NCBI GenBank assembly: GCA_016222915.1
Contig: JACRQA010000178.1
Coordinates: forward strand, 1-60,848
Length of the DNA stretch: 60,848 bases
DNA from: Nitrospirota bacterium
GTDB lineage: Bacteria > Nitrospirota > Thermodesulfovibrionia > UBA6902
Direction of reading: 5' to 3'
Part shown: positions 29,802 through 46,156 of the stretch, piece by piece
Position numbering within the stretch: position 1 is the first letter of the stretch
How the letters are laid out: the number at the start of each line of letters is the position of its first letter
Notes under the pieces: model-generated
Told to the model about the DNA's origin: nothing
What the model saw: the letters and a program-made list of their open reading frames with translations, nothing else
The model's database searches: none
Program-made: the position numbers and the translations under genes

Positions 29802-31217
29802 ATGGAGCTACAGATGGAAATTTTACGAAAAGTACGCGAAACGATCAGGAAACATTCCATGCTCTCTGACGGGGACCATGTGCTTATCGGCCTGTCCGGA
29901 GGGCCGGACTCCGTTTGCCTTGCGCTCATTTTAGACAAGCTCAGGGAGGATTTCAAACTTCCATTGAGCGCCGTTTATGTTGATCACTCTTTAAGACCGG
30001 ATGAAATTAAAAAGGAGCTGGAATTCTGTGAAGGTCTCTGTAAAGAACTCCGGATAGATTTCCATGTCAGGAAGATAGAGGTAAAGAAGTATGCAGAGGC
30101 CGCCGGCATAAACCTCCACGAAGCGGCAAGGGAACTGCGGTATGCCGCTTTCGAGGAAGTGTCCCACAGCATTGATGCAGGCAGGACCGCGCTCGGACAT
30201 AATGCCGACGACCAGGCAGAAACTGTACTGATGAGGCTTTTCAGGGGTTCAGGCAGAAAAGGCATGACAGGTATTCCCCCCGTGAGAAAGAAAATAATCA
30301 GACCGCTCATTGAAATTGAGAGAAGCGAGATAGAGAAATTCCTTTCCATCAACTCCGGACTCTTAACTCTCAACTCTCAACTCCCTTTCATGGTCGACTC
30401 CTCAAATCTCAAGGAAGATTACTTCAGGAACTGGATAAGGCTTTCCTTGATGGAAAAGATCAAAGAAAAAAATCCGGCGGTAGTACGGGACATATGCAGG
30501 ACGGCCGGTATTTTCAGGGAAGAAGAGGAATACCTTGAGTTGATCGTGACCAAGACCCTTATGAGGATGATAAGCAGAAAAAGCGACAGTTCCATAGAGC
30601 TCTTTCTGTCCCCCCTGGAAAAAATTGAGACGCCTATATTGAGACGTGTCCTGAGAAGGGCGCTTGACGCGACCAGCGGGCTCAGGGGAATAACATTTAC
30701 GCATATTGAAGATATAGTCGGTCTATTAAAAAAGGGGAGGGCAGGGGACAGCATTGATCTTCCCGGCGATGTAAGGGTAGTAAGGGAATATTCACTCCTG
30801 AAGATAACTTCGGAAAAGCCTTCCATGCTTTCAGAATATGAAATGCGTCCTCCTTGCGAGATCATCCTCAGGGAAGCGGGCATGGTGGTAAGGGCAGCTT
30901 TTGAAGTAAACGGCGGCGACTACGGCGACGGAAAGGCTTCGGTACTTTTGGACGCCGGAAGTATGAAGTTCCCCCTCAGGATCAGGGCAAGGGCGGAAGG
31001 AGATTTTTTCTATCCTATGGGGTTCGGAAAAAAGAAGAAGCTCCAGGATTTTTTTGTTGATGAAAAGGTCCCGAGGGAGGAGAGGGGCCGGACGCCGATT
31101 GTTGTATCAGGTGATGATATCATATATGTTGCAGGTCACAGGGCGGATGAAAGGTTTAAAATAACCGAACAGACGGAAAGGTGTTTAAGGCTTACGATAA
31201 CAAAGGCGGAGAATTAA
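29802..31217 (+). CDS. tilS: tRNA(Ile)-lysidine synthase
   Basis: PP-loop [24 protein letters not shown] and DSSN...RNWIR motifs. Confidence 0.92.
30365..30385. repeat. heptanucleotide tandem repeat (AACTCTC)x3 inside tilS
   Basis: Read directly: aactctc aactctc aactccc. 21 nt, in frame, encoding part of LLTLNSQLP. Confidence 0.6.
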
Positions 31218-31219
31218 GC

Positions 31220-31999
31220 ATGGACCAGGAGCAGCTGCACCCGAAAATAATCGTCGTCATGCCCGCTTACAACGCGGAATCGACCCTTGAGAATACCTAT
31301 AAAGATATACCTGAAGGCGCAGTGGATGAAGTCATTCTTACGGATGACTGCAGCAAAGACAATACGGTTGAAATTGCCAGGAGATTAGGCATCACGGTTT
31401 ATACCCATGACAAAAACCTGGGTTACGGGGGTAATCAGAAAACCTGCTACGAGGCCGCATTAAAAAAGGGGGCTGACATAGTCGTCATGATCCATCCGGA
31501 TTATCAGTATGATCCACGGGTGATCCCTTTTGCCGCTGGCTTTATTATGACCGGTATTTGCGATGTTGTCCTGGGCTCGCGAATCAGGACGAGGCAAGAG
31601 ACCCTTGAAGGGGGGATGCCGGTTTATAAATACATCAGTAACCGCTTTCTGACATTGATTGAAAATATAGTTTTGGGTCAGAACATCGGCGATTTTCACA
31701 CTGGGTTCCGGGTCTACAGGAGGGAAGTCCTGGAAACGATAAATTACCGTCACAACTCAAATGACTTTATCTTCGATACGGAATTCCTGGCCCAGTCCGT
31801 TTATCACAAGTTCCGCATCGGGGACATACCGATCCCTACGAGATATTTCCCGGAGGCCTCATCGATAAATTTGAAGAGGAGCATCAAATACGGTTTGCAA
31901 ACTCTTCTGGTCATGGTAAAATTCATACTTCAAAAGACAGGACTTTTTCATTTCATAATCTTTGAAAGAGCAAAACAGGGAGGACACATTGACAGATAA
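31220..31999 (+). CDS. family 2 glycosyltransferase
   Basis: [14 protein letters not shown]...[14 protein letters not shown] (GT-A DxD region). ATG at 31220 has SD AAGGCGGAG. Confidence 0.85.
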
Positions 32000-33398: not shown

Positions 33399-33438
33399 TA
33401 ATTAGCAGATGCCTGAGCCTCACCGCCGAGTCAGCTTG

Positions 33439-33494
33439 AAAAAGGGGGCAGGCCTTAGTGCTTTATTTCCGGAAATTCGGCCTGTCCCCTTTTC
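33439..33494. terminator. bidirectional hairpin terminator between gltX and the downstream convergent gene
   Basis: aaaaagggggcaggcc...(24-nt loop containing tttccggaaa)...ggcctgtccccttttc. Confidence 0.55.
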
Positions 33495-33503
33495 TGGGTC
33501 GGT

Positions 33504-34343
33504 TTATAGCATTGTATTTGGTTGAGGTTGCTCAGTAGGGGAAGGCGTAAACGTTTCAACTATTTCTTCGAATACGTTATTAATATTCAAATATACGCCA
33601 TAATAGATTATAAGGTCGTCCGGCCCTCTACCAGCGTCCCATCTTGCAGTTATAAAAGGTGTTACTTCTGAGTTATTATTGTAACGCAGTTCAACGGAAC
33701 CCTTGAACCGATGTTTATTATCAAATCTCTCGCTGTAGCCATAACCTAATTCTATTGCCGACCCCTTAAATGTATTACTGTCCGGGCTAAATCCGATACC
33801 AATGAAGCTGTCCGAAAGAAAGTCATTTTCCAGTCTGCTGTCGCTGGTCAGAATGAATCCTAACTGGGGTTTTAAGTAAATAGATTCAAGTTCGTTATCG
33901 AACGGCCTTATCACGGCTGCCAACGAACCTTCTGCAACCTCTGCATCCTTTACAATTTTTTCTAATGATTGATTATTGTTGATAGTCTCTCCTTCAACGC
34001 TTTTTCGACCGAGCCTGATACCGGCAACAAGATCAACCTGTACTTCCTTGACTTGTGGTTCCTGATTGACTTGTGCTGGCGGTTTGACTTGTTTTTTTAT
34101 TACGTTGAATTGTGCTGTTATGTCGAAGAATAAGTGATTGTCTTGAAAAAGTCTGTTGTCATCTGTAGTGGCCGTTTCTCCATTAGTTGGATTTAAGGTC
34201 GAGGTTTGAAATCCTGTTCTAAAAAATGCCTGTATTTTATCAGGCGTATCCTTGTTATGTTTTGCCGCATCCTTGTTATCATCTGCAAAGGAATCCACAG
34301 CAAGAATCATACAAATAATGAATAACGCAATTTTCTTCATCAT
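33504..34343 (-). CDS. secreted hypothetical protein (possibly outer-membrane beta-rich)
   Basis: Signal peptide MMKKIALFIICMILAVDSFA. Alternating hydrophobic pattern; no catalytic motif recognised. Confidence 0.55.
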   Translation of the reverse strand: MMKKIALFIICMILAVDSFADDNKDAAKHNKDTPDKIQAFFRTGFQTSTLNPTNGETATTDDNRLFQDNHLFFDITAQFNVIKKQVKPPAQVNQEPQVKEVQVDLVAGIRLGRKSVEGETINNNQSLEKIVKDAEVAEGSLAAVIRPFDNELESIYLKPQLGFILTSDSRLENDFLSDSFIGIGFSPDSNTFKGSAIELGYGYSERFDNKHRFKGSVELRYNNNSEVTPFITARWDAGRGPDDLIIYYGVYLNINNVFEEIVETFTPSPTEQPQPNTML

Positions 34344-34559
34344 GAAAGTACCCCCTCCTGAAATTGTGATACCATTTGGATTATAAGAGCTTAAGATGCA
34401 AATTTGTTAATAGTATTTTTGAATCGTCTAAGGTACGCTTTTCATGTATTCCTCCTTTGACAAAAGGGGCGGAACTGCACAAGAAACGATTCAGCGAGAC
34501 CATGCCCCCGTTTAATGTTCTTTACAGCCTCGTTATCTTACTTCAATAAGATGGGATTT

Positions 34560-34700
34560 TGCAAGAATTCAGCAGAGCAATACGGACAAGCAACTCGTCG
34601 ACCTCGCAGGCGCCTGCATCGGTTTGAAGCATGTCAAAGGGGACGAGTCCGCCAAGTCCGTGCTGGGGCACTTAAGCCACTCAAGCGCTCCATCCTATTG
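34560..34700 (-). pseudogene. frameshifted C-terminal remnant of an Xre/MbcA/ParS-type (DUF2384-like) antitoxin
   Basis: Two adjacent minus-strand frames read DGALEWLKCP and QHGLGGLVPFDMLQTDAGACEVDELLVRI. This resembles the W-L..P...LGG..P.D.L.T..GA.EV..LL.RI toxin-binding domain. There is no N-terminal part and no toxin gene. Confidence 0.4.
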
Positions 34701-34706
34701 GTGACT

Positions 34707-37406
34707 CTATTCCAGTCTCATCAGTCTCCGCAGGCTGCCTCGCCTGAGAAACAACTTATCGAAGAAGAAGAGGTGTATCCCTGTCAGTAGCGAGCCTATA
34801 CAAATAAGCCCGAGATTAAAGATAAAATTCTTTACAGTGCGCATTGGAAACAGCCACGCAAGGGCGGGGACTATGGTAATTGCCAAAGGAAGACCGATCT
34901 TTATAATGATCTCTCCCGGTGTAAAACCTCCTGCAAAGAACGGCTCGCCCCAGTTAATGGCAAGCCACCATATACCTGCCCCTGCGGCTGCCGCCGCAAT
35001 TAAAATGGAAACAGTAAGGAGGACCGGGCTGAGCCTCAATATCTTCAAGAAAGTCTGTTTCCCGGCCTTGAGTTGTTTCTCCAGGTCAATCCGCCGCTGA
35101 TCGGTCGAGCTTCCGTCTCTTCTCATTATGTCGCAAAGACAGAGGAACGGCCACCGTTTCTTAAGGTCTTCCTCTTTCTCTTCTATAAGCATAAAGCCTT
35201 TCCATGATGCTCGGCCGGTTTTGTGCTCTTCCTTCGCGGCAAGCTCTTTCAACTCATAGCGCGTCATCGCGTAGCCGCTCATCATCAGGGCATATGCCTC
35301 GACATCAGTGAACGAATCGAGGTCCGTGCGCAGGTCCGCCAGGCAGCTCTGAATATCACGGTCAATGCCGTATGGCGTCACGGTATCACGCTTCTTCCAT
35401 AGAAACTTGTCCTTGCTGCCGACCCAGGCTATGGGTTCGCGGTCGAGGTCCTTCTTAAGATGAACAAATAACAGTCCTTCGAGGGACCTGGAATCAACGC
35501 ATTCTCTAAGCGCGTCATACTCTGCCTCCCTGATGCGGTCCATAAATATCGAGTTCGACCGCAGCAGCACGCCGAGTCTTCCTGTCTGCGGCTTGACCTG
35601 GTCGTCCATCTGTCCGGAGGCGTCGCTGCAAATGATGATGCTGCACGATTCATCGAGAAGTCCTTGTACGCCCTGATTATCGTGAACGCCTCCATCAACC
35701 AGTTGCACGTGATAACCCGGATAGAGGCCTTTCAGCTCAAGGGGCTCAAACAGTCCCGAAACACATGCTGACGCGGCCACGGCCTGCCCCAGAGGATACA
35801 GACGTAAGGATTCCTTTTCAATATCCTCGTAATAGACCCTCCTGAACCGGGCATTCATGTCAATTTCATCGCCTATCAGTCCGGGGGGTTCTCCCATGAA
35901 CTTTGCCGTGAAGTGGAAATTATGCCCCGAATTCAGTGACGTGGTATTTATGAGCAGCACCGGGACCTTTGCGCGTCTTCTCCAGTTGACCTTGAGAGGA
36001 TTGAATTCTTCCCTTGGGCCTTCACCTTTCGGCCCGATCAGGAGGTCTTTCATGGATATGCTTTTTCGCGAACACGGACCGCCGGGAGTGTTGTTGAAGA
36101 TATGCTTCTGATACAGTTCGGACAGTTTGATGCTGCGCGTATAGTTGCGAGAAAAGGTTATCTTCAGGTTGGCCCAAAAATCTCCCATGGCGCGGACCCG
36201 CAGGTTCTTCTGCACGGCACAAAGAAAATTATGCTGCACCCTCTGGACGAGTATGATGTAGTCGTCCCTGGTCAGTTGTTTGTCTTCCGTGCTTTCGAGC
36301 ATGCGCTGGAGCTCAAGATAATAATAGGCCCCGACAATGCTGCCGCCCGACACAGTCGAGATCACCTCAACACTGCTGAGAATATCGGCCTCGGCAAGCG
36401 CGGCCAATGCGCCCAGATGATAAAGCGACGCGCGAAAGCCGCCGCCTGAAAGGGCGAGACCAACCTTTCCCCTGTGCGCGCGTATGACGTCCAGAGTATT
36501 CTCCCCAGTCAGCTCCTGCAAGGCCTTCCAAGCCGGGTGCCATTCCTTGCCGTCACCGGGTATCTCTATCCCTTGCATCTTCACGATAGAGATGAGTTGT
36601 CTTACTGTAGTCTGAAGTTTCCAGATGTCTTTTGTAAGCTTGTATGCCTGCTTAAGACAATGGCCTGCCTCTTCGTATTTCTTCAGTCCCATGTAAACTT
36701 CGGCGAGCGTAACATAAAGCCAGTAATCTTTTTTGAAGGCTTCGCCTTTTGTCTCTGCCTCTTCTTTTGCCTTTTCTTCCAGTTCTTTGATCAAACCTGG
36801 AAGCTCTTCCATCCTCTTAATACGTAATTTCTTTGCCTCATCTCCATAGTACTTCGAATCCTTCGGTGGTGTCCCTGCTTTTTTTTCCGCTTTTCTTGCT
36901 TGTGATGCGAGGATATCGAGGATAAAGGCGGCATTTATTCCGCCATAGCCCTTGTCAATTTCGGGCCTTTCCCATGCGCGGAGGTAGAATGCAAGTGAAG
37001 ACTGGATGTCCTCAATGCGTCCCCGGTATTCCCATAGACGCTTATATACTGCGCCGGCAAGCCCGAGGGTCTCGGGATCGCACTTATCTCCGAGGCCGAT
37101 CTTATCGAGAATAGCCAGGGCCTTTGGAAGCCTGACGGACACATGCTCGTCTTCGTTCTTGTACGTGCATATGGCCTTTCTCTGCTGAATCCAGCGGGCC
37201 TTATCTATTTTCGCCCGTTCCTTATCGTCAGATGCCTCCTTTTTAAGAAGGTCCTTCGGAAAATGCCCTTCCAGCCTTTCAATTACCTTCAGCGCAAGGC
37301 CGAACTCCATTTCAGATTCCAATTCTTTTTCAAGTTTTTCCAACTCACCCGCCGGAGTTGATGGATCCGAAAGCAGATTATTTGTCTTTACAACGATTGT
37401 TTTCAT
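34707..37406 (-). CDS. patatin-like phospholipase with a ~300-aa helical (TPR/DUF4071-like) N-domain and 3 C-terminal TM helices
   Basis: Oxyanion LSGGGFRAS, nucleophile elbow TVSGGS (GxSxG) and catalytic Asp DGGVHDNQG. N-domain motifs ICTYK, GLAGAVYKRLW and YGGINAAF. C-terminal hydrophobic helices. SD GAGGGGGA. Confidence 0.85.
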   Translation of the reverse strand: MKTIVVKTNNLLSDPSTPAGELEKLEKELESEMEFGLALKVIERLEGHFPKDLLKKEASDDKERAKIDKARWIQQRKAICTYKNEDEHVSVRLPKALAILDKIGLGDKCDPETLGLAGAVYKRLWEYRGRIEDIQSSLAFYLRAWERPEIDKGYGGINAAFILDILASQARKAEKKAGTPPKDSKYYGDEAKKLRIKRMEELPGLIKELEEKAKEEAETKGEAFKKDYWLYVTLAEVYMGLKKYEEAGHCLKQAYKLTKDIWKLQTTVRQLISIVKMQGIEIPGDGKEWHPAWKALQELTGENTLDVIRAHRGKVGLALSGGGFRASLYHLGALAALAEADILSSVEVISTVSGGSIVGAYYYLELQRMLESTEDKQLTRDDYIILVQRVQHNFLCAVQKNLRVRAMGDFWANLKITFSRNYTRSIKLSELYQKHIFNNTPGGPCSRKSISMKDLLIGPKGEGPREEFNPLKVNWRRRAKVPVLLINTTSLNSGHNFHFTAKFMGEPPGLIGDEIDMNARFRRVYYEDIEKESLRLYPLGQAVAASACVSGLFEPLELKGLYPGYHVQLVDGGVHDNQGVQGLLDESCSIIICSDASGQMDDQVKPQTGRLGVLLRSNSIFMDRIREAEYDALRECVDSRSLEGLLFVHLKKDLDREPIAWVGSKDKFLWKKRDTVTPYGIDRDIQSCLADLRTDLDSFTDVEAYALMMSGYAMTRYELKELAAKEEHKTGRASWKGFMLIEEKEEDLKKRWPFLCLCDIMRRDGSSTDQRRIDLEKQLKAGKQTFLKILRLSPVLLTVSILIAAAAAGAGIWWLAINWGEPFFAGGFTPGEIIIKIGLPLAITIVPALAWLFPMRTVKNFIFNLGLICIGSLLTGIHLFFFDKLFLRRGSLRRLMRLE

Positions 37407-37446
37407 TTCTGTCCCCCTCTCTATGAGTTCTTATGTTGATTACCCT

Positions 37447-37728
37447 CTATCGAACTATTGAAAAACCAAGAGCCATGATCGTCTTGAGCGTCTCCATTGC
37501 GGTGACGCGGTCGTATTCCTTTTCCGACTCCGGCAGCTCAGCATATGGCACAAGGTCAGGATGAGTCTTCTTTGCGTCGTCCCGGTTCGGCCCATAGGTC
37601 CATCCTTCGGCGATACGCTTTTGCGCCCAGAGGTCGTGGTTGTTTTCCGCGAGCTTCTCAGTCAGCTCGATCAGATAGTCAGGAAGCCGGATTGCTGATG
37701 TGTCTGTAGGTTTAGGAGTATAGTCCAT
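37447..37728 (-). CDS. stand-alone RyR (ryanodine-receptor repeat) domain protein
   Basis: 93 aa. LAENNHDLWAQKRIAEGWTYGPNRDDAKKTHPDLVPYAELPESEKEYDRVTAMETLKTIMALGF matches the RyR repeat consensus along its whole length. Confidence 0.85.
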   Translation of the reverse strand: MDYTPKPTDTSAIRLPDYLIELTEKLAENNHDLWAQKRIAEGWTYGPNRDDAKKTHPDLVPYAELPESEKEYDRVTAMETLKTIMALGFSIVR

Positions 37729-37807
37729 AAATATTTACCTCACTCTGTTAAATGATCTTCAATCTCCTACACATCCTTGTCCCGCAGGTGATGGCCCATT
37801 TTGTTTA

Positions 37808-40315
37808 TCATTGACCTTCAGCAATGTCACTCTCTATCGCTTCGAGGTTTTTCTTTACAGTTTTTGTACTTGGGTGATCCGGGCCGAGTTTATTCAAAAA
37901 GGTTTCATAACTCTTCAGTGCAAGGTCTTTAGCTTCCTGCAGCTCTCCCAAATCCTGTAGCACCAGAGCCAGATTGGATTGCCTTCTGGCAATAGAGGGA
38001 TGGGCGGGCTCAAAGTTTTTTTCATTAGCAGCGAGCGCCTTGCGCAGAAGGTCTTTTGCTTCCTGCAGCTCTGCCAAATCCTGTAGCACCAGAGCCAGAT
38101 TGGATTGCCTTATGGCAATAGAGGGATGCCCTGCCTCATAGCTTTTTTCATCAGAGACCAGGGCCTTGCGCAGAAGGTCCTTAGCTTCCTGCAACTCTCC
38201 CATATCCTTCAGCACCATAGCCAGATTGGATTGCCTTATGGCAATAGAGGGATGCCCCGGCTTATAGCTCTTTTCATCAGAGGCGAGGGCCTTACGCAGA
38301 AGGTCTTTAGCTTTCTGCGACTCTCCCAAAACCCATAGCACCGTAGCTAGATTGGATTGATATGTAGCAATAAAGGGATGGCCCGCCTCATAGTTCTTTT
38401 CAGCAGAGGCGAGGGCCTTGCGCAGAAGGTTCCTGGCTTCCTGCAGCTCTCCCAAATCCTGTAGCACCGTAGCCAGATTGGATTGACATATGGCAATAGA
38501 GGGATGCCCTGGTTCAAAGCCCTTTTCAGCATTAAAAAGCGATTGCCTGCCGTATTGTTCCGCGAGCCTGTACCTTCCCCATTTTCGATTGTGCCATCTA
38601 AGATAGTTTGATAAATTCATCGCCTGTTCCGCATTTATGAATTCAGACGCTAACAATGCATCTGCATGTGGAATTATTTTTTCCAATTCAAAATATGCCG
38701 ACGAGTCTTTATCATGTTGAACACGCCCCATTTCATCTACAACCGCATCCGCCACCTTGCCGAATAAGCCGCTGTCTTTCTCAATGGTGCTCCTGACAAA
38801 CCCTGATATGAGCCTGTGCAGCCACGGCTCGTTTTCTTCATTTAGGTTAATCATAGAGAGCTTTTTATCAAGTTCTCCAATGGCGTCTGAAAGAGGATCG
38901 TTAAAGATATCTCCGGCAGGCAGGGCCAGTACCTTTTTGAGCAGCTTTCTTGGGACTGAAACCGGCGCAAGCAACGACATGGCTTGCAGTACTGCCTTTG
39001 CAGTGTCCGAGGCAATGTCCCAGCTCATCCTGAAGGTCGCGGCCACCTCCTTTGTATGCCCGTCAGGGAGCTCGTTTGCATAGTTTTTTGCAAAGGCGTC
39101 AAGGGCCTTCATCGTCCCGGTCTTTTTTATCTCACCCACAAGTCTGCCGATGGTCAAGTCTGTCCTGATATTCAGGTAATTCCTCGCAAGCTCAAGCGCA
39201 AGCGGAAGCCCGCCGAGGAGTTCCACGAGGGCCTTCGCATTTTGACCGAATTTCCTGTCACCGGAGTCAAGCAGGCCGATGCCTTCCTGCGGAGTCATGA
39301 AATTAAGATTGATATGGGCACAAGTGAGATCGCGGCGTCTTGTGGTAACGAGCACATAGATGTTTTTTTGAGGCGGCAGCCAAGGTTGGAGTGCTTCAGC
39401 TTCAGGGAAATTATCAAGGACTACAAGCACGCGCTGAGAAGAGCTGAGCATTCTCCACAGCTCATGCAACTGCTCATCTTCCTTAAGCGTCCCTTCTATT
39501 TTGAATTTCGCCCCTTCGAGGACCTGGCTGATCAAAGTGGAGATGCCCCGGTCCGCATCAATCCAGAAGACGCCTCCCGGATAGTTAAGCCCGAAGCGGT
39601 GAACGTATTCTACGGCAAGCTGGGTCTTGCCCAGCCCCCCTGTCCCCATGACAGCGCCGACGCCTTCCACTGCCGCGGTCTTGCTCTCGCGCAATATATC
39701 ATGTATCTGCCACAGATCACTGACTCTTCCGACAAAACCATTGCCTAATGAACGATAAGGCATCCTGTGTCTTTCAGGAAGACGGCAGACAGGCGGCAGC
39801 TTTGCACGGTCCGCATGGGTTAGCGGCACAGGTGACATTGACTTAGGCAATGTTTCGACCCCCGGCATGCTCATGAGCCCGGCGACTTCTTTTGCCAGCT
39901 CAGATAAATCTGAATCGATTTGATGCTCATTCCCGCCTGAAAGCGGCCGACCATCCTTCGGCCTCGCCTGTATCTTCTTAAGCCAATCAACCTGGTTCCA
40001 CACGCATGGTTTAATAACCAATGGGATTACGCGTAGACCCTTTTCCTCCCTGTGCTTGAGAAGCCTCGGTATCTCTTCTTTAAGGATAAAATTTGAATTG
40101 AGAAAATCGGCTGAGATAAGAAGAATGGCTGCTGAACAGGCACCAATGGCCTTTTCAATCTCCGGGAACCAGTCGTCGCCACTGGCTATCCGGCGGTCGT
40201 CCCACACGCTTACGAGATTTTGCTTTGCAAGGACTCCAAGGTGAACTACCACCCTGTCCTTCCAAGCCTCATCCTTGTGGCTATAACTGATAAAGACTGT
40301 AGGGTTATCCGGCAT
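37808..40315 (-). CDS. TIR - NB-ARC (STAND NTPase) - TPR repeat protein
   Basis: TIR: VFISYSHKDEAWKDRV...ILLISADFLNSNFILKEE. NB-ARC: P-loop GTGGLGKTQLA, Walker B VLVVLDNF, LVTTRR and GGLPLALELA. Five or more 42-aa TPR units follow. The start is placed at MPDNPT (SD AGGAGGGGG). Confidence 0.9.
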   Translation of the reverse strand: MPDNPTVFISYSHKDEAWKDRVVVHLGVLAKQNLVSVWDDRRIASGDDWFPEIEKAIGACSAAILLISADFLNSNFILKEEIPRLLKHREEKGLRVIPLVIKPCVWNQVDWLKKIQARPKDGRPLSGGNEHQIDSDLSELAKEVAGLMSMPGVETLPKSMSPVPLTHADRAKLPPVCRLPERHRMPYRSLGNGFVGRVSDLWQIHDILRESKTAAVEGVGAVMGTGGLGKTQLAVEYVHRFGLNYPGGVFWIDADRGISTLISQVLEGAKFKIEGTLKEDEQLHELWRMLSSSQRVLVVLDNFPEAEALQPWLPPQKNIYVLVTTRRRDLTCAHINLNFMTPQEGIGLLDSGDRKFGQNAKALVELLGGLPLALELARNYLNIRTDLTIGRLVGEIKKTGTMKALDAFAKNYANELPDGHTKEVAATFRMSWDIASDTAKAVLQAMSLLAPVSVPRKLLKKVLALPAGDIFNDPLSDAIGELDKKLSMINLNEENEPWLHRLISGFVRSTIEKDSGLFGKVADAVVDEMGRVQHDKDSSAYFELEKIIPHADALLASEFINAEQAMNLSNYLRWHNRKWGRYRLAEQYGRQSLFNAEKGFEPGHPSIAICQSNLATVLQDLGELQEARNLLRKALASAEKNYEAGHPFIATYQSNLATVLWVLGESQKAKDLLRKALASDEKSYKPGHPSIAIRQSNLAMVLKDMGELQEAKDLLRKALVSDEKSYEAGHPSIAIRQSNLALVLQDLAELQEAKDLLRKALAANEKNFEPAHPSIARRQSNLALVLQDLGELQEAKDLALKSYETFLNKLGPDHPSTKTVKKNLEAIESDIAEGQ
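37915..38544. repeat. five tandem 126-bp repeats encoding the TPR array
   Basis: The landmark tgcgcagaag recurs, with small substitutions in some units, at about 37915, 38041, 38167, 38293 and 38419 (exact 126-nt period). The units are highly similar at DNA level. Confidence 0.85.
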
Positions 40316-40362
40316 GCCCCCTCCTGATTGTTTATCCGGTGAGACAGACAAAAGCCTCATGA

Positions 40363-40391
40363 ATATTACTATCAACAGGCTTTTAAATCAA
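40363..40391 (-). promoter_or_regulatory. sigma70-like promoter upstream of the TIR-NB-ARC-TPR gene
   Basis: On the minus strand, TTGATT-17 nt-TAATAT, about 48 nt upstream of the ATG at 40315. Confidence 0.4.
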
Positions 40392-40480
40392 GATTAAAAT
40401 TATTTGCCTTTGTCATTTGCGCCGCTGCCTTTTTGGCTGTATGCTTGTAGTTAATAGCAGTCAACCGAATAGAGGTGAAT

Positions 40481-41257
40481 ATGGAAAGCTCAAACGGTCC
40501 TAAACATAGAAGGACAACCTTGCTCTATATGCTTGCGCTGACCGGACTTGCACTCGCCGTCATCTTTGCATCGGCAGCCTTATTCTCCGGATTAGGGACG
40601 AGATGGAATATCTGGCATTTCAGGACCGGTCTTAGTGTGCTGCGCTACGCGGCTTATGGTGAGGCTGCTGTAGTTTTGATTTCACTGAGTGTATGTGTCA
40701 TTGCAGCATATAAACGGGTATGGAATGTCTTTGCTGTTTCGCTGACAGGTTTATTAATAGGGGCTGCGGTCTTTAGTGTGCCTTTTAACTGGGGAAGAAC
40801 AGCCAAAAGCGTACCACCCATTCATGACATTACAACAGACACGGAGGACCCTCCGCAATTTTCTGCTGTCCTGGCTCTTCGGAAAGATGCGCTGAATCCC
40901 GCCGAATATGGGGGGCAGGAGATCAGCGTCCTGCAGCGCGCTGCTTATCCTGACATAAGACCCGTGTTGCTTGATGTTCCGACTGAGCAGGTATTTGAAC
41001 TGTCCCTGAAGACCGCCCGCAAGATGGGATGGGACATTGTAAATGCGGACAAGGACAAAGGGCTGATAGAGGCAACGGACACGACCTTCTGGTTCGGGTT
41101 CAAAGATGATATCGTCATACGTATCAGCCAAGAAATCAGGGGCAGCAGGATCGACCTGCGTTCTGTATCTAGGGCGGGCAAGAGCGATGTGGGGACCAAT
41201 GCGCGGAGGATAAGAAATTTTGTGAAGGAGCTTGAGAAAGAGGCTGTGAAACCTTGA
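40481..41257 (+). CDS. DUF1499-like membrane protein
   Basis: Three N-terminal TM helices, then PPIHDITTDTEDPPQF and a C-terminal RSVSRAGKSDVGTNARRIR motif typical of DUF1499 proteins. Confidence 0.65.
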   Translation: MESSNGPKHRRTTLLYMLALTGLALAVIFASAALFSGLGTRWNIWHFRTGLSVLRYAAYGEAAVVLISLSVCVIAAYKRVWNVFAVSLTGLLIGAAVFSVPFNWGRTAKSVPPIHDITTDTEDPPQFSAVLALRKDALNPAEYGGQEISVLQRAAYPDIRPVLLDVPTEQVFELSLKTARKMGWDIVNADKDKGLIEATDTTFWFGFKDDIVIRISQEIRGSRIDLRSVSRAGKSDVGTNARRIRNFVKELEKEAVKP

Positions 41258-41313
41258 CCCGGTGCCCCATTCATCGCTGCCAAGTGAATGCTTTCATTCA
41301 GGAAGGAGTTGCT

Positions 41314-42342
41314 ATGAGAAAACAGGGAGCACCGGAATGTATTATCGTTGCCGCGCTCGTCTGCAGCTTTATCTTTGTATCGGGAAGTGAGAAGGCCTGG
41401 ACCCAGGGTCCTGTGAAGGACATGCGCGGTCAGACCTTTACTGATCCGTCAAAAACATTCCCCATGCCCGATGACTGGATAAAGCAGCCCATTAAGTACG
41501 ATAAGGAGAATGAGGGCGCTGATGTCGTCATAATGATGGACCAGGATATTTACCACACGCTTTTACCGTCCGTTCAGCAATTCGCAAAAGAAAAAAATCT
41601 GAAGATCATTATGATTGAGGGGACGTGCGGTATTGCTGCAGGGATGCTTGCGAAAAAGACGGCGGACATGGGAGGTTTCTGCTGCCCCGCTGGGGCGGAG
41701 GACAGGCTGCCGGGGCTCAGGTTCCATACCATCGGGATTGTGGCCAAGGCGTTTTTCGTCAATCCGGACAATCCGGTTGATAATATCTCCGAGACCCAGC
41801 TGCGTGACATATATCTCGGAAAGTTAAATCGCTGGTCGGAGCTGAAGACACAGGAAGGACAAAAGGGTCCGGACCGTGCGATAAAGCCCATCGGAAGGCT
41901 CCATTGCCCTTTAAGGCCCGGACACTGGAGGTTGCTGCTGGATGATAAGACAAAATTCGGGCCTGGCGTTTCAGAAGTAGGTTCGATTCCTGACATGATC
42001 GCGCAGGTTGCCTCAATTAAAGACGCGATCGGGTGGGAAGTGATGACCATGGCTGAGAGAAACAGGAAGTTAGGCACGGTCAAGCCGCTGAAGGTCAACG
42101 GTTACCGGCCTAACGATTCCGGCGCGCTTGCATTGCTGAAGTATCCATTCTACCGGACTTACCAGGTAACGACATGGGAGGGGAAGGGTGTGGAAAACCA
42201 AAATGCCGCACAATTAGTGCAATATCTGATCAAAGAGTTCGAGAAGCTTGATCCTGATAAATACGGCTTTGTGTCGCAGGGCCGGCTCAGGAAGGCAGGG
42301 TGGCGGTTCAGCGGGGATGAATTGACCGGGGAACCGAAATAA
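41314..42342 (+). CDS. periplasmic PstS-like (PBP-like 2) substrate-binding protein
   Basis: Signal peptide, then the type-2 PBP pattern ending LLKYPFYRTYQVTTW. ATG at 41314 has SD AGGAAGGAG. Confidence 0.65.
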   Translation: MRKQGAPECIIVAALVCSFIFVSGSEKAWTQGPVKDMRGQTFTDPSKTFPMPDDWIKQPIKYDKENEGADVVIMMDQDIYHTLLPSVQQFAKEKNLKIIMIEGTCGIAAGMLAKKTADMGGFCCPAGAEDRLPGLRFHTIGIVAKAFFVNPDNPVDNISETQLRDIYLGKLNRWSELKTQEGQKGPDRAIKPIGRLHCPLRPGHWRLLLDDKTKFGPGVSEVGSIPDMIAQVASIKDAIGWEVMTMAERNRKLGTVKPLKVNGYRPNDSGALALLKYPFYRTYQVTTWEGKGVENQNAAQLVQYLIKEFEKLDPDKYGFVSQGRLRKAGWRFSGDELTGEPK

Positions 42343-42348
42343 GGCCGT

Positions 42349-44595
42349 ATGAAAATGGACTCCCGTATCGACAGGATACTTTCCCGAGTCCCTCTTACAC
42401 CAAAGCTGCTGATTATTACTTTATTTGTATGGGGGCTGGTATGGGGCATTCTTGAATATTTACAGTCGAACCAACTTAAAAAAATAACTGATATTCAACT
42501 GACTCACCTGCTTGAGCAGCAGGCAAGGGAGAACAGAATACGTTTCGACAACTATGTAATGGCATACCATGACATGGCGGTGTTGATCGTATCGCAAAAG
42601 GCCTTTGTTGATCACGTCAGAGGGTACGCGGGATTTTCAGATGGGACCAAAGGCATTAAATACCATACCGAAATTCCTGCATGGCTTCCTGATGCATCGG
42701 TGATGCGGCATTTTGTCAGAATCCATAATGCCGTCCTGATAGACGGGATGGGCAGGGTCAGAGAGGTTTATCAGGGAACGTCCGGGATCGTCCCGCGGTC
42801 TCTTCTTCCTCCATCGGCCCTCCTTTTGAAGATGAGCAGGGGACAGAGCATGCTGACTGTTGTTGATGGCGTCCCTTATCTGATCGTCTCGGATGCCGTT
42901 AAAGACCCGAATCGGGGTGATACGCTTGCGCTGGCGCTTATCTCCCCTGTCGACGATGATTTCCTCTCTGCTTCACAGGGTGTCATATCCGGCAGGGGTA
43001 TTATCGCGCTGGTGGAAACAGCGCGTCAGCAGGTCGTTGCCAGCAATGCCCCTGATCTGATACCGGCGGGCACACAGCTTGATTTATTGGCAGACCGTTA
43101 TTTGATTACTTCCAAGGCGTTCTTTGATTGGGGCGGGTCAGAAATGCTTATGCAGTTTACTGCTTTGGTATCGAAGGATGAGCTGGCGGAGATGGGCAGG
43201 GCCATGCTTGTCGAGGGAAGGGTCCAGCGCTCCTTCATATCGCTTGCGCTTCTAATGTCATTTGCAATGATAATGTTTTGGATCACCGGGAAAATTCACC
43301 TGCTGACCGAGAATATCGGCGACTTCTCACATAATATTTTGAACATGCGCCTGCCGGAAATCAGCACGGGAAGAGACCAGCTCCGCATCCTTGAGGAGCG
43401 CTTTGCCATGTTTAAGGATGAAATTATAGGGTCGCGCGAAAAGCTGAAGAGACAGGCAGAAGAACTGCTGAGGGAAAAGACCGTGTATCTTGACACCCTC
43501 CTGCATTCCTCATCTATGGCGGTCGTAGCTACCGACCTTGATTTGAAGATCAAGTATTTCAACCCGACGGCGGAAACGCTTTTCAGTATCAGTGCAGAAA
43601 CCGCTATAGGGAAGACCGTCTCAGAAACGAAGCTTGATGAAAGGCTGGATATACCCTGTTTTGAAAAGATAATCAATGATTCCGATGGTGATGAAGAATG
43701 TATTTCCACCACAATTAACAAGACTGCAAAGGGAGAGCAAATCCTCGAATCAAAAGTCTCAATTGTAAAGGACGCGGAGGGAAATATAAGCGGGTTGCTT
43801 ATGATTACTCAGGACATAACGGAACGTAAGAAGGCGGAGGAGCAGAGATTGGAGCTTGAGCGGCAGCTTCTGCACTCTCAGAAACTGGAGAGTATCGGGG
43901 TGCTGGCAGGGGGGGTCGCCCATGACTTTAACAACCTGCTTATGGCGGTCCTCGGCAATCTCCACCTGGCCCTGATGAAGCTATCACCCGGTACCCCGGT
44001 CCGGACCCTGATCGAGCAGGCCATTCAGGCGTCAAATCGCACGGCCGACCTTACGCGCCAAATGCTGGCATATTCCGGTAAGGGGATGTTTATTATCGAG
44101 AAGCTGGATATAAACGAAATGGTAAAAGAGAATGCATCTCTGTTAAATTCCACCGTGGCCAAGACGGCGATGCTGGGTATTGACCTCCAGCCTGATATAT
44201 CAAGGATAGAAGCAGATTCAGGACAGATTCAGCAGGTAATTATGCACCTGCTTATCAATGCATCTGAAGCCATCGGCGAAAATACCGGGGTGATTATGTT
44301 ATCAACCGGAGAGATGGAATGTGATGAGACTTATTTAAGAGGAAGCAGGACCGATGAGGTCCCAAAAGCCGGACGCTTTGTCTATCTGGAGGTGTCGGAC
44401 ACGGGCAGCGGAATGGATGTGGAGACACAACAGCACATGTTCGATCCGTTTTATTCGACAAAATTCACCGGACGTGGATTGGGGATGTCGGCGGTTTTCG
44501 GCATTGTTCGCAGTCACCGGGGCGCAATTATGGTTGACAGCGTTATGGGACGGGGCACCACAATACGGGTCCTGTTTCCTGCAGAAGCCTTATGA
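42349..44595 (+). CDS. membrane sensor histidine kinase (periplasmic domain, PAS, HisKA, HATPase)
   Basis: H-box GGVAHDFNNLL, N-box HLLINASEA, G-boxes DTGSGM and GRGLGMS. PAS region is AVVATDLDLKIKYFNPTAE. Confidence 0.88.
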   Translation: MKMDSRIDRILSRVPLTPKLLIITLFVWGLVWGILEYLQSNQLKKITDIQLTHLLEQQARENRIRFDNYVMAYHDMAVLIVSQKAFVDHVRGYAGFSDGTKGIKYHTEIPAWLPDASVMRHFVRIHNAVLIDGMGRVREVYQGTSGIVPRSLLPPSALLLKMSRGQSMLTVVDGVPYLIVSDAVKDPNRGDTLALALISPVDDDFLSASQGVISGRGIIALVETARQQVVASNAPDLIPAGTQLDLLADRYLITSKAFFDWGGSEMLMQFTALVSKDELAEMGRAMLVEGRVQRSFISLALLMSFAMIMFWITGKIHLLTENIGDFSHNILNMRLPEISTGRDQLRILEERFAMFKDEIIGSREKLKRQAEELLREKTVYLDTLLHSSSMAVVATDLDLKIKYFNPTAETLFSISAETAIGKTVSETKLDERLDIPCFEKIINDSDGDEECISTTINKTAKGEQILESKVSIVKDAEGNISGLLMITQDITERKKAEEQRLELERQLLHSQKLESIGVLAGGVAHDFNNLLMAVLGNLHLALMKLSPGTPVRTLIEQAIQASNRTADLTRQMLAYSGKGMFIIEKLDINEMVKENASLLNSTVAKTAMLGIDLQPDISRIEADSGQIQQVIMHLLINASEAIGENTGVIMLSTGEMECDETYLRGSRTDEVPKAGRFVYLEVSDTGSGMDVETQQHMFDPFYSTKFTGRGLGMSAVFGIVRSHRGAIMVDSVMGRGTTIRVLFPAEAL

Positions 44596-44695
44596 TATGG
44601 AAAAATTGGGAAGGACTTTGGAAAAGGTCTTGTAGAAATAATCGGGTAAGAATAACGGACAAGTGCCGTTAGCCCAAACGGACGGCTGTCACGAG

Positions 44696-46156
44696 TCATC
44701 TCCTCCTTCCGCTGCCGAACAGCGAACCGAGCACCCCTCTGATTATCTGCCTTCCGACCTGGCTTCCTATCGCATGGGCCGCGCTCTTTGCGAGTGCTCC
44801 GAAAAGCTCTTCCGGTTGCGATTTAGGTCCAGCCTTCCTGCCTCTTGCAGAAGGTGTCTCCGGTTGCTCCTCGACCTTTTGCGCCACTTTTGCCTTCAAG
44901 TGTTCATAGGCTGACTCACGGTCTGTGACCTGTTCATAGTGGCCATATAGGACTGAGCCTCGGACAATCTGATTCCGTTCTTCAGGTGCTAGCGGAGTGA
45001 TACGACTTGAAGGGGGACAGATGAGCGCCCTCTCCACAATTGTCGGCGTGCCTTTTTCATCCAGGACGGAAACGAGGGCCTCGCCTACGCCCAGTTCCGT
45101 GATGGCCTTTGCAGTATCGAGCTTCGGGTTTGTCCGGAAGGTCTCCGCCGCTGATTTCACCGCCTTCTGGTCTTTTGGCGTAAAGGCCCTCAGCGCATGC
45201 TGTACCCTGTTGCCCAGTTGTCCGAGTACGGAGTCAGGAAGGTCCAACGGATTCTGTGTAATGAAATATATGCCTACGCCTTTTGAGCGGATAAGGCGGA
45301 CAACCTGTTCTATCTTGTCCACAAGCGCCTTCGGCGCATCGTCAAAGAGGAGATGTGCCTCATCAAAGAAGAAAACCAGCTTAGGTTTTTCGGGGTCTCC
45401 GGCCTCAGGGAGTTCTTCAAACAGCTCCGACATCATCCAGAGCAGGAAGGTCGAATAGAGCTTCGGGGACTGCATCAATTTATCGGCTGTAATAATATTA
45501 ATGACGCCTTTGCCCCTTGCATCGGTCTGCATTAGGTCCTCAAGATTCAGCGCAGGCTCTCCAAAGAACCTGTCTCCGCCCTGTTCTTCAATTGTAAGGA
45601 GACCGCGTTGGATAGCTCCTATACTCGCTGCGGAGATATTTCCATACTGTGTTTTGAATTGAGTTGAATTGTCTCCGACAAACTGTGCCATTGAGCGCAG
45701 GTCCTTAAGGTCCAGAAGCAGCAGTCCGTTCTCGTCGGCTATTTTAAAAATGATAGAGAGGACGCCGCTCTGCACTTCATTGAGATTTAATAGACGGCTT
45801 AAGAGAAGAGGCCCCATCTCAGAGATAGTGGTGCGTACGGGATGGCCCTGTTCACCGAAGACGTCCCAGAAGACAACAGGACATCCTTCAAAATGGAAAT
45901 CCCGAAATTGCAGCATCTGCACCCTCTCACTGATTTTGGGGTGTTCACTTCCGGGCAAGGCCATGCCTGAAAGGTCGCCTTTGACGTCTGCCATGAAAAC
46001 AGGCACGCCGATATTACTGAACTGTTCGGCAAGCACGCGGAGTGTGATGGTTTTGCCTGTCCCTGTAGCGCCGGCGATAAGCCCATGCCGGTTTGCCATT
46101 TTGGGAAGCAGAAATATCTCTTGTTCACCTTTTGCGATATATAACGGTTGGAGCAT
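44696..46156 (-). CDS. HerA-like / DUF853 (YjgR-type) P-loop ATPase
   Basis: Walker A GATGTGKT, Walker [11 protein letters not shown] and a glycine/arginine-rich C-terminal tail. Confidence 0.8.

What the first reader, a model, noticed from the sequence alone, without database searches (positions are those of the whole stretch)
37447..37728. Stand-alone RyR-repeat protein wedged between a TIR enzyme and a lipase effector
The 93-aa ORF is essentially one ryanodine-receptor repeat: AENNHDLWAQKRIAEGWTYGPNRDDAKKTHPDLVPYAELPESEKEYDRVTAMETLKTIMALGF. Bacterial RyR-domain proteins have no assigned function that I know of. Its position between a TIR gene and a patatin gene suggests an adaptor, ligand-binding or inhibitory role. 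TIR is a family that makes NAD-derived signals, including cADPR isomers in Thoeris-type systems. Animal RyR channels are modulated by cADPR. That is only an analogy, but it gives a testable idea that the RyR repeat is a nucleotide-signal or protein-protein module.
Basis: inference. Interest (0 to 1): 0.6.

Follow-up and report, generated by a model that had tools for sequence, protein, structure and literature searches.

The report
Host RyR nucleotide pocket in TIR operon
A tiny bacterial protein made of a single ryanodine-receptor repeat keeps the pocket that phage proteins use to capture or cut cyclic ADP-ribose alarm signals, and it sits inside a TIR-to-lipase immune operon, so it is most likely a built-in regulator of that signal.

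Summary
ORF 37447-37728 (-) encodes a 93-aa protein that is one complete RyR domain (Pfam E 2e-37). It lies between a TIR-NB-ARC-TPR STAND gene and a TPR-S-patatin-TM lipase gene.

Two 2026 preprints show that phage RyR-domain proteins bind or cleave 2'/3'cADPR. The window protein keeps every ligand or catalytic residue with identical spacing (H31, W34, R49, H56, D73).

In 80 related loci from at least 8 phyla, a TIR gene lies within 2.5 kb in 28. Of these, 27 are on the same strand and 16 are within 150 bp. That is roughly 150 times the background TIR density. In this genome the only RyR gene and the only TIR gene are neighbours.

TPR-S effectors are far commoner than RyR (69 against 4 of 401 genomes), and close patatin relatives work with TIR alone. 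RyR is therefore an optional accessory, not the obligatory receptor.

Best reading: a Thoeris-like system (TIR-STAND to NAD-derived signal to TPR-S-gated lipase) in which RyR buffers or degrades the signal. A co-receptor role is not excluded.

I found no paper describing host-encoded stand-alone RyR in TIR operons. This scan has noted TIR-RyR cassettes on other genomes before.

The parts
37808..40375 (-). TIR-NB-ARC-TPR STAND protein, the predicted infection sensor and signal synthase. The ORF as listed is 855 aa from a TTG; the likely real start is M21 at 40315.
   Evidence: Pfam gives TIR_2 E 1.3e-14 (res 27-135), NB-ARC E 2e-8 (237-397) and TPR_10/TPR_12 E 1e-36. The best PADLOC hit is ThsB1 at E 4e-26. 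Motifs present are FISYS at 28, Walker A GTGGLGKT at 244 and LVVLDN at 317.
40076..40078 (-). Codon of the TIR catalytic glutamate (E100 of the listed ORF).
   Evidence: This column is at least 90% conserved in the alignment of 60 TIR domains found next to RyR genes (A5). The local sequence is FILKEE at 96-101.
37447..37728 (-). Stand-alone single RyR (R12-type) domain protein of 93 aa. It is predicted to form a homodimer with cADPR-type nucleotide pockets.
   Evidence: Pfam RyR E 2.1e-37. AF2 pLDDT 95.7, TM 0.95 to the B. thetaiotaomicron RyR dimers. 36.7% identity to RyDEP gp78 and 40% to RyR Tad gp68.
37636..37638 (-). RyR H31 codon, equivalent to RyDEP H75 (general base) and RyR Tad H129.
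   Evidence: Alignment A6 and residue mapping. Invariant in 36 homologs.
37627..37629 (-). RyR W34 codon, equivalent to RyDEP W78 and RyR Tad W132 (stacks on adenine).
   Evidence: Invariant in alignment A1.
37561..37563 (-). RyR H56 codon, equivalent to RyDEP H100 and RyR Tad H154 (phosphate contact).
   Evidence: At least 90% conserved in alignment A1.
37510..37512 (-). RyR D73 codon, equivalent to RyDEP D117 (general acid) and RyR Tad D171.
   Evidence: Invariant in alignment A1.
34707..37406 (-). TPR-S-patatin-3TM protein of 899 aa, the predicted signal-gated membrane phospholipase effector.
   Evidence: Pfam TPR-S E 8.4e-12 and patatin E 5.1e-16. It belongs to a family of at least 2962 proteins with the same architecture.
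36921..37199 (-). TPR-S (PF20308) sensor repeat region of the lipase (residues 70-162).
   Evidence: G000:C135:36921-37199, E 2.6e-13.
35694..36446 (-). Patatin catalytic core: oxyanion GGGFR 321-325, nucleophile S353 in TVSGG, and D571 in DGG.
   Evidence: Motif scan. Pfam patatin covers residues 317-580.
34752..35054 (-). Three C-terminal hydrophobic helices (residues about 785-885) that would anchor the lipase in the membrane.
   Evidence: Kyte-Doolittle scan, 19-residue windows scoring above 1.6.

Best explanation
The three genes form one Thoeris-like abortive-infection operon.

Step 1 (inferred from architecture): the TIR-NB-ARC-TPR STAND protein recognises a phage component with its TPR array and oligomerises through the NB-ARC. 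This brings its TIR domains together, and they convert NAD+ into a cyclic-ADPR-type nucleotide.

Step 2 (inferred): the nucleotide is read by the TPR-S domain of the membrane-anchored patatin lipase. The lipase then degrades membrane phospholipid and kills or arrests the infected cell.

Step 3 (the finding itself): the 93-aa RyR protein is a homodimeric, R12-like nucleotide pocket that binds the same TIR product. Because it is co-expressed with the system, it acts as a host-encoded buffer or off-switch. It either titrates leak signal as a sponge or cleaves the ribose-ribose bond as a RyDEP-like glycosidase. The lipase therefore fires only when TIR output exceeds a threshold, and signalling can be reset afterwards.

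Shown here: domain identities, conservation of all ligand and catalytic residues, strong and phylogenetically scattered TIR-RyR linkage, and dispensability of RyR in related TPR-S systems. Inferred: the ligand, the direction of regulation, and sponge versus enzyme.
For: 1. Fold and pocket. Pfam RyR E 2e-37. The AF2 model has pLDDT 95.7 and TM 0.95 to B. thetaiotaomicron RyR dimers, and it matches the human RyR3 R12 structures solved with ATP, ADP or dantrolene.

2. Ligand residues. Window H31/W34/R49/H56/D73 align column for column with RyDEP H75/W78/R93/H100/D117 and with RyR Tad H129/W132/K147/H154/D171. In the preprints these residues contact 3'cADPR/ADPR and are needed for binding or cleavage (PMC13232231 sections 4-5; 10.64898/2026.06.04.730250). 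They are invariant or nearly so in 36 host homologs.

3. Linkage to TIR.
- The own genome has exactly one RyR and one TIR_2 match, 80 bp apart.
- Of 80 related loci, 28 have TIR within 2.5 kb (25 of the 55 with full flanks). 27 are on the same strand and 16 are within 150 bp, across 8 phyla.
- TIR density falls from 0.145/kb next to RyR to 0.012/kb at 9-10 kb. Background is 0.0009/kb in five whole genomes, and in all five a TIR lies within 6 kb of the RyR.
- The linkage needs at least 20 changes on the RyR tree, so it is not one inherited block.
- Pfam-annotated contigs show TIR beside RyR in 5 of 7.

4. Same logic with swapped effectors. The 88%-identical RyR in a Nitrospirota MAG sits between TIR-NACHT-TPR genes and a TPR-S-bearing LCAT/CHAT effector. 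The 84%-identical patatin has the same TIR | RyR | patatin order.

5. RyR is optional. TPR-S occurs in 69 of 401 genomes of the phylum sample and RyR in 4. Patatin relatives at 47-51% identity have no RyR, and one of these pairs with a TIR gene alone.

6. The TPR-S class is linked to TIR signalling. Type VIII Thoeris (TIR + TPR-bearing ThsI) signals with canonical cADPR (10.64898/2025.12.03.692087).

7. Viral copies of this RyR subfamily rarely sit next to TIR (1 of 14), as expected for counter-defence use.
Against: - No binding, cleavage or phenotype data exist for any host-encoded RyR.
- Residue conservation cannot separate sponge from glycosidase, because RyR Tad keeps the H/D dyad yet only binds. 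It also cannot separate an inhibitor from a receptor.
- In 32 of 80 loci the small RyR sits beside a large protein with C-terminal RyR repeats fused to RelA_SpoT, SLOG, TrkA_N, AAA or TPR-S modules. There the RyR looks like a sensor, so a positive role for the small copy is plausible too.
- 26 of 80 loci show none of TIR, TPR-S or a second RyR within 2.5 kb.
- R12 domains also bind ATP and ADP, so the ligand need not be a TIR product.
- TIR-STAND proteins are usually read as NAD+-depleting effectors, not signal synthases.
- My TIR calls used an iterated in-house HMM. It was checked by alignment motifs, but Pfam TIR_2 alone flagged only 12 of 153 immediate-neighbour ORFs.
Confidence: 0.45

Rival explanations
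1. Positive co-receptor or adaptor. The RyR dimer is the primary receptor of the TIR product. Once loaded with ligand, it docks onto the TPR-S repeats of the lipase and activates it.
For: TPR repeats typically bind proteins or peptides. RyR lies immediately upstream of the TPR-S lipase here and overlaps its start codon in the 84%-identical system. TPR-S lies within 1 kb of the small RyR in 8 loci. RyR domains fused to effector-like proteins look like sensors.
Against: Most TPR-S systems lack RyR: 69 against 4 of 401 genomes, and patatin relatives at 47-51% identity have no RyR, one pairing with a TIR gene alone. Type VIII Thoeris works as two genes. The small RyR also accompanies TIR without any TPR-S protein in most linked loci.
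Confidence: 0.22
2. Signal-processing enzyme. RyR acts as a glycosidase that converts the primary TIR product (for example 2'/3'cADPR) into the molecule that actually gates the TPR-S lipase.
For: The H31/D73 dyad of the RyDEP glycosidase is intact, and the gene sits between synthase and effector.
Against: The RyDEP product is plain linear ADPR, a common metabolite and therefore a poor alarm signal. RyR is dispensable in related systems.
Confidence: 0.08
3. General adenine-nucleotide (ATP/ADP) sensor, or a protein unrelated to the flanking genes and adjacent only because all three lie in a variable island.
For: Human RyR3 R12 binds ATP, ADP and AMP-PCP. 26 of 80 loci show no TIR, TPR-S or second RyR neighbour. 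The module lies in an 11.3-kb segment missing from a same-genus genome.
Against: TIR is enriched about 150-fold, lies on the same strand in 27 of 28 cases and within 150 bp in 16 of 28, across 8 phyla. In the own genome the single TIR and single RyR are adjacent.
Confidence: 0.1
4. Guard or decoy logic. The host RyR holds a basal pool of signal or occupies the effector, so that phage sponges or hydrolases that disturb this equilibrium trigger the lipase (Panoptes-like detection of immune evasion).
For: There is precedent for systems that sense phage sequestration of nucleotides (PMC12657218 and PMC13640721, abstracts). The host protein is homologous to phage anti-Thoeris proteins.
Against: No constitutive synthase is evident. 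The STAND architecture implies infection-triggered TIR activation. Nothing in the data specifically supports this reading.
Confidence: 0.05

Closest known systems
Phage RyDEP (mycobacteriophage DyoEdafos gp78) and RyR Tad (Pectobacterium phage vB_PatP_CB1 gp68), the RyR-domain anti-Thoeris proteins (preprints PMC13232231 and 10.64898/2026.06.04.730250)
   Same: Same Pfam family (PF02026). 36.7% and 40% identity over the domain. Identical spacing of the H/W/R-or-K/H/D pocket residues. Small, probably dimeric proteins.
   Different: The window protein is encoded by the host chromosome inside a TIR operon, not by a phage. It has no N-terminal extension. It is much closer to cellular stand-alone RyR proteins (65-89% identity) and to animal RyR repeats (about 50%). 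The presumed role is self-regulation of immunity rather than evasion. Activity is untested.
Type VIII Thoeris (ThsB TIR + ThsI, a CMP hydrolase with the Burroughs-Aravind TPR; signal is canonical cADPR) and the TIR/TPR-S systems predicted by Burroughs & Aravind 2020
   Same: A TIR gene is paired with an effector that carries the TPR-S class of repeats (PF20308). The predicted logic is the same: TIR-made NAD+ derivative, TPR sensor, toxic effector.
   Different: The effector here is a membrane patatin lipase, not a CMP hydrolase. The TIR is fused to an NB-ARC-TPR STAND module, a class the Thoeris survey deliberately excluded. There is also a third gene, RyR. I could not compare directly with a ThsI sequence, and the 2020 paper was not held.
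Bacteroides thetaiotaomicron stand-alone 'putative ryanodine receptor' (PDB 3NRT, 4N05, 6UAG, 6UAM)
   Same: 58-60% identity, TM 0.95, about the same length, and crystallised as dimers that mimic the animal R12 tandem repeat.
   Different: Those entries carry no assigned function. I did not examine the B. thetaiotaomicron locus itself. Related Bacteroidota loci carry TIR plus a large RyR protein rather than a STAND and a lipase.
Ring nucleases of type III CRISPR (Crn1-3, Csx3): a functional analogy only
   Same: A small host-encoded protein, co-located with a nucleotide-signalling immune system, that would remove or sequester the second messenger to set a threshold and reset the system.
   Different: No homology, a different messenger (cOA against ADPR-derived), and the function is proven there but only inferred here.
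Bacterial TIR-STAND / Avs-type NLR-like proteins
   Same: Gene 1 has the N-terminal TIR, central NB-ARC with Walker A and B motifs, and C-terminal TPR sensor array.
   Different: Those act as single-gene NAD+-depleting systems. Here the TIR-STAND is operonic with a signal-pocket protein and a TPR-S-gated effector, which suggests signal synthesis as in plant TNLs.

Membership tests
RyR / R12 domain family (Pfam PF02026) | Sequence match to the RyR domain model above the gathering score | tested here: met
   127.7 bits against a cut-off of 27.4, E 2.1e-37, model positions 1-90 of 91.
RyR / R12 domain family (Pfam PF02026) | Helical hairpin fold of a single RyR repeat | tested here: met
   AF2 pLDDT 95.7. 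TM 0.95 to 3NRT and 0.8-0.9 to the human RyR3 R12 domain.
RyDEP / RyR Tad cADPR-targeting proteins | Conserved pocket residues (RyDEP H75, W78, H100, D117; RyR Tad H129, W132, K147, H154, D171) | tested here: met
   Window H31, W34, R49, H56 and D73 fall in the same alignment columns.
RyDEP / RyR Tad cADPR-targeting proteins | Binding or hydrolysis of 2'cADPR, 3'cADPR or cADPR | not testable with these tools
   This needs purified protein and ITC, EMSA or LC-MS.
RyDEP / RyR Tad cADPR-targeting proteins | Phage-encoded counter-defence context | tested here: not met
   The gene lies in a bacterial chromosome contig between gltX and housekeeping genes, in an operon with TIR and a lipase. The subfamily has at least 546 cellular loci against 14 viral contigs.
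Thoeris-type TIR signalling defence | ThsB-like TIR with a catalytic glutamate | tested here: met
   TIR_2 E 1.3e-14. PADLOC ThsB1 E 4e-26. E100 lies in the conserved Glu column.
Thoeris-type TIR signalling defence | Co-operonic effector with a dedicated signal-sensing domain | tested here: met
   TPR-S (PF20308) is fused to patatin + TM, on the same strand with gaps of 79 and 40 bp. That TPR-S is the sensor is a literature inference.
Thoeris-type TIR signalling defence | Infection-triggered production of an NAD+-derived signal, and phage protection | not testable with these tools
Type VIII Thoeris specifically | ThsI effector (CMP-hydrolase domain + TPR) | tested here: not met
   The effector is patatin + TM, and no CMP-hydrolase family is among its Pfam hits.
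STAND / NLR-like NTPases | NB-ARC/NACHT NTPase with Walker A and B motifs, flanked by an effector and a repeat sensor | tested here: met
   NB-ARC E 2e-8. GTGGLGKT at 244 and LVVLDN at 317. Five TPR_10 units.
Patatin-like phospholipases | Oxyanion GGGxR/K, nucleophile serine in a GxSxG-like motif, and catalytic Asp in DGG/DGA | tested here: met
   GGGFR at 321, TVSGG at 351 (the first Gly is replaced by Thr) and DGG at 571. Pfam patatin E 5e-16.

The most novel reading that the evidence does not exclude
Stand-alone host RyR proteins are a widespread, previously unrecognised class of built-in regulators of TIR immune signalling. They would act as cADPR-isomer sponges or glycosidases that set the firing threshold and reset the system, the ADPR-world counterpart of CRISPR ring nucleases. 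They would also be the cellular source from which phages captured RyDEP and RyR Tad. As a corollary, bacterial TIR-STAND (NLR-like) proteins can act as signal synthases feeding separate TPR-S-gated effectors, as plant TNLs do.
Probability: 0.35. Interest if true: 0.8.

Novelty: new variant of a known kind. Interest (0 to 1): 0.66.

Why it matters
Until 2026 the RyR repeat had no known biochemical role outside animal channels. Two preprints now show that phages use it to capture or destroy TIR-made cyclic ADP-ribose signals.

The same pocket occurs in host-encoded form, wired into TIR operons across many phyla. That suggests bacteria themselves use RyR modules to tune TIR signalling, and that phages borrowed a host regulator. 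It would also give TIR signalling its first candidate dedicated off-switch or threshold device.

The locus further links an NLR-like TIR-STAND sensor to a separate signal-gated lipase, the logic of plant TNL immunity.

All of this can be tested directly with a 93-aa protein and a three-gene operon in a laboratory strain. It also bears on the old question of whether the R12 domain of animal ryanodine receptors binds cADPR-type ligands.

Tried and rejected
- PADLOC has no model for the RyR or the lipase; only the TIR hit ThsB.
- The promoter and terminator scan was no better than shuffled sequence, so operon status rests on spacing and strand.
- GC content across 28-48 kb is flat at 0.45-0.54, so there is no compositional sign of transfer.
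- The phylum-wide RyR search was low-yield, with 4 of 401 genomes positive. I therefore used the genome-contig scan for the survey.
- Burroughs & Aravind 2020, which defined TPR-S, is not held by DOI or PMC id. I cannot say whether they listed RyR as a neighbour. A preprint that re-analysed their 78 operons does not mention it, and neither do the Aravind-lab eLife 2020 and 2021 papers or the 2026 ParA preprint.
- The look-up of the Thioalkalivibrio patatin homolog found no record.
- The RyR tree is poorly resolved (99 columns) and the phage proteins sit on very long branches, so the direction of host-phage transfer cannot be read from it.
- I considered that the gene is a prophage anti-defence gene lying beside TIR by chance. 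I rejected this because of same-strand, sub-150-bp linkage in many phyla and the rarity of the subfamily in viral contigs.

Full report
**Observation**

The ORF at 37447-37728 on the minus strand is real. It has an ATG start, 93 codons and a GAGG ribosome-binding site about 9 nt upstream. It is a complete single RyR domain:
- Pfam PF02026 gives E 2.1e-37 and covers 90 of 91 model positions.
- It matches all four repeats of animal RyR1-3 and the stand-alone Bacteroides thetaiotaomicron protein 3NRT by sequence.
- An AlphaFold2 model built on 36 homologs has pLDDT 95.7. It superposes on the B. thetaiotaomicron dimers with TM 0.95 at 58-60% identity, and on the human RyR3 Repeat12 domain solved with ATP, ADP and dantrolene.

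- Upstream, with a 79-bp gap, lies a TIR_2 + NB-ARC + TPR STAND protein. Its TIR is most like Thoeris ThsB in PADLOC (E 4e-26). It keeps the FISYS motif, the catalytic glutamate (E100) and Walker A and B motifs.
- Downstream, with a 40-bp gap, lies an 899-aa protein. It has an N-terminal TPR-S domain (PF20308), an intact patatin core (GGGFR, S353, D571) and three C-terminal hydrophobic helices.

**What is known about the domain**

- Lopez Rivera et al. (PMC13232231) found that mycobacteriophage DyoEdafos gp78, named RyDEP, is an RyR-domain glycosidase. It cleaves the ribose-ribose bond of 2'cADPR and 3'cADPR. H75 and D117 form the catalytic dyad, W78 stacks on adenine and H100 contacts the phosphates. 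Other phage homologs are nanomolar sponges.
- A second preprint (10.64898/2026.06.04.730250) shows that Pectobacterium phage gp68, named RyR Tad, sequesters 3'cADPR. It also binds 2'cADPR and canonical cADPR. The residues involved are H129/W132, K147/H154 and K170/D171.

I fetched both phage genes and aligned them with the window protein. H31, W34, R49, H56 and D73 fall in exactly those columns. The same residues are invariant or nearly so in 36 cellular homologs. The pocket is therefore intact. The sequence cannot say whether the protein cleaves or only binds, because RyR Tad keeps the dyad yet is a sponge.

Stand-alone RyR proteins of about 94 aa are common and highly conserved, at 65-89% identity across phyla.

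Seven Pfam-annotated contigs carrying close homologs showed TIR genes beside RyR in five, and TPR-S proteins in two.

A scan of one genome per species found at least 546 relatives. I analysed the best 80 loci with 10-kb flanks, using six-frame ORFs and iterated HMMs seeded from the window proteins. The TIR hits were checked by alignment: FISYS and the catalytic Glu are at least 90% conserved.

Results for features within 2.5 kb of the small RyR:

| Feature | Loci out of 80 |
|---|---|
| TIR gene | 28 (25 of the 55 loci with full flanks) |
| NB-ARC STAND | 10 |
| TPR-S | 9 |
| Patatin | 2 |
| Second, large RyR-domain protein | 32 |

Further details of the TIR linkage:
- Of the 28 TIR-linked loci, 27 have TIR on the same strand and 16 have it within 150 bp. 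They come from 8 named phyla.
- TIR density falls from 0.145 per kb in the first kilobase to 0.012 per kb at 9-10 kb.
- Five whole genomes gave a background of 0.0009 per kb, and in each of them one TIR lies within 6 kb of the RyR.
- In the window's own 3.0-Mb assembly there is exactly one RyR match and one TIR_2 match, and they are neighbours.
- On a poorly resolved RyR tree the TIR-linked state needs at least 20 changes, so the association is not one inherited block.
- Pfam run directly on 153 crude immediate-neighbour ORFs gave TIR_2 in 12, TPR-S in 8 and RyR in 10. It also gave NUDIX, RelA_SpoT, SLATT and patatin in two or three each.
- The same RyR subfamily is rare in 2.9 million viral contigs (14 loci), and TIR is adjacent in only one of those.

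**The system around it**

Pfam names PF20308 'Tetratricopeptide Repeats-Sensor'. From memory, it was introduced by Burroughs and Aravind (J Bacteriol 2020) as a TPR scaffold predicted to sense TIR-made NAD+ derivatives; that paper was not held. The Sorek-lab survey of TIR signalling systems (10.64898/2025.12.03.692087) validated type VIII Thoeris. That system pairs a TIR with ThsI, a CMP hydrolase carrying this TPR, and it signals with canonical cADPR. The survey explicitly excluded Avs-type TIR-STAND proteins and does not mention RyR.

The lipase here belongs to a large family with the same TPR-S-patatin architecture, at least 2962 proteins at E <= 1e-10. Three relatives were checked for context:
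- The 84%-identical relative has the same TIR | RyR | lipase order, with the RyR stop overlapping the lipase start.
- Relatives at 51% identity have no RyR and no Pfam-detectable TIR.
- Relatives at 47% identity pair with a TIR gene and have no RyR.

In a 401-genome sample of the window's phylum, TPR-S is present in 69 genomes and RyR in 4. Only this genome has both.

The closest RyR (88% identity, a Nitrospirota MAG) sits among TIR-NACHT-TPR genes, a SLOG-TIR gene and a giant LCAT/CHAT effector that ends in TPR-S. The recurring unit is therefore TIR (often STAND-fused) plus a TPR-S-gated effector of variable type, with RyR as an optional third part.

The whole module lies in an 11.3-kb stretch (about 33.4-44.7 kb) between gltX and a 486-aa ATPase gene. 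In a same-genus genome those two genes are only about 50 bp apart. GC content gives no transfer signal.

**Mechanism**

The best-supported model is a Thoeris-like abortive-infection pathway:
1. The STAND protein senses infection and oligomerises its TIR domains.
2. The TIR domains make a cADPR-type nucleotide.
3. The TPR-S domain of the membrane lipase reads it, and the lipase destroys the membrane.

The RyR protein binds the same nucleotide. I favour a negative, threshold-setting role (sponge or glycosidase) for three reasons:
- RyR is dispensable in closely related and in validated TPR-S systems.
- It accompanies TIR regardless of effector type.
- Its only characterised relatives remove signal.

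A stoichiometric high-affinity binder co-expressed with a catalytic synthase would absorb leak and give a sharp switch. An enzyme would add a reset function. This is functionally analogous to the ring nucleases of type III CRISPR.

The main rival is a positive co-receptor that docks on the TPR-S. In 32 of 80 loci RyR repeats are fused to the C-termini of effector-like proteins carrying RelA_SpoT, SLOG/LSDAT, TrkA_N, AAA or TPR-S modules. There the RyR looks like the sensor, which keeps this rival alive. Processing-enzyme, guard and unrelated-ATP-binder readings are less likely.

All steps beyond domain identity, residue conservation and genomic linkage are inference.

**Novelty and verdict**

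The domain's ligand function is known only for phage proteins, and only from 2026 preprints. TIR/TPR-S systems are known. I found no description of host-encoded stand-alone RyR genes embedded in TIR operons. Only those two preprints link RyR to Thoeris in the searchable library, and neither discusses host contexts.

Earlier notes of this scan report TIR-RyR cassettes in at least eight other genomes. Most have RyR fused to channel-like or ATPase effectors, and some also have a free small copy. The theme is therefore recurrent in the scan. The present locus adds the STAND + TPR-S-lipase configuration and the quantitative linkage test.

I class it as a new variant of a known kind (Thoeris-like TIR signalling). 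It is of good interest because the hypothesis is sharp and cheap to test.

Noticed in passing
L019-L094 (e.g. L019:6967-9999, L040:4633-7653, L046:7118-9943): In 32 of 80 loci the small RyR gene is adjacent to a 600-1000-aa protein that ends in one or two RyR repeats. The N-terminal parts include RelA_SpoT + LSDAT/SLOG, TrkA_N, AAA, TPR-S, guanylate cyclase or STAND modules. These look like effectors that use RyR as their sensor domain.
   Followed up: partly
window 33400-44700: In a same-genus genome (G350, contig C152) gltX is followed after about 50 bp by the homolog of the 486-aa ATPase gene at 44696-46156. An 11.3-kb block is therefore variable between close relatives. It holds the 279-aa signal-peptide protein, the three-gene module, DUF1499, a periplasmic-binding-like gene and a histidine kinase. 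The glycosyltransferase at 31181-31999 is also unmatched there.
   Followed up: partly
L001 / L015 (Nitrospirota MAG JACRHC010000056.1): This is a dense TIR island around the 88%-identical RyR. It holds three TIR-NACHT-TPR genes (one with an N-terminal ParA-like AAA_31 domain), a 217-aa TIR, a SLOG(LDcluster4)-TIR, and a 1782-aa DUF7379-LCAT-CHAT-TPR-S protein.
   Followed up: no
L003:9032-9334 and protein P0201: Prokaryotic YEATS (pYEATS) appears twice. It is a separate gene two genes downstream of a small RyR, and it is fused to the N-terminus of a 1195-aa TPR-S-patatin homolog. It may be another optional accessory of these systems.
   Followed up: no
L004:6683-7102 and Pfam tallies of neighbours: NUDIX hydrolase genes lie next to RyR-TIR cassettes in at least two loci, and SLATT_1 two-TM effectors in three. 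Both fit ADPR-nucleotide signalling contexts.
   Followed up: no
window 37915-38544: The TPR sensor of the STAND protein consists of five highly similar 42-aa TPR_10 units (Pfam reports five stretches). This suggests recent repeat expansion or homogenisation in the sensor.
   Followed up: no
phage records MT836850.1 and MT837259.1 (hits H1, H2): Two unannotated 'Bacteriophage sp.' contigs from human faeces encode host-type small RyR proteins at 64% and 56% identity. That is far closer than any characterised phage RyR protein (35-40%).
   Followed up: no
window 33504-34343: A 279-aa minus-strand ORF with an N-terminal signal-peptide-like segment lies directly downstream of the lipase gene and has no Pfam match. 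It is unclear whether it belongs to the module.
   Followed up: no
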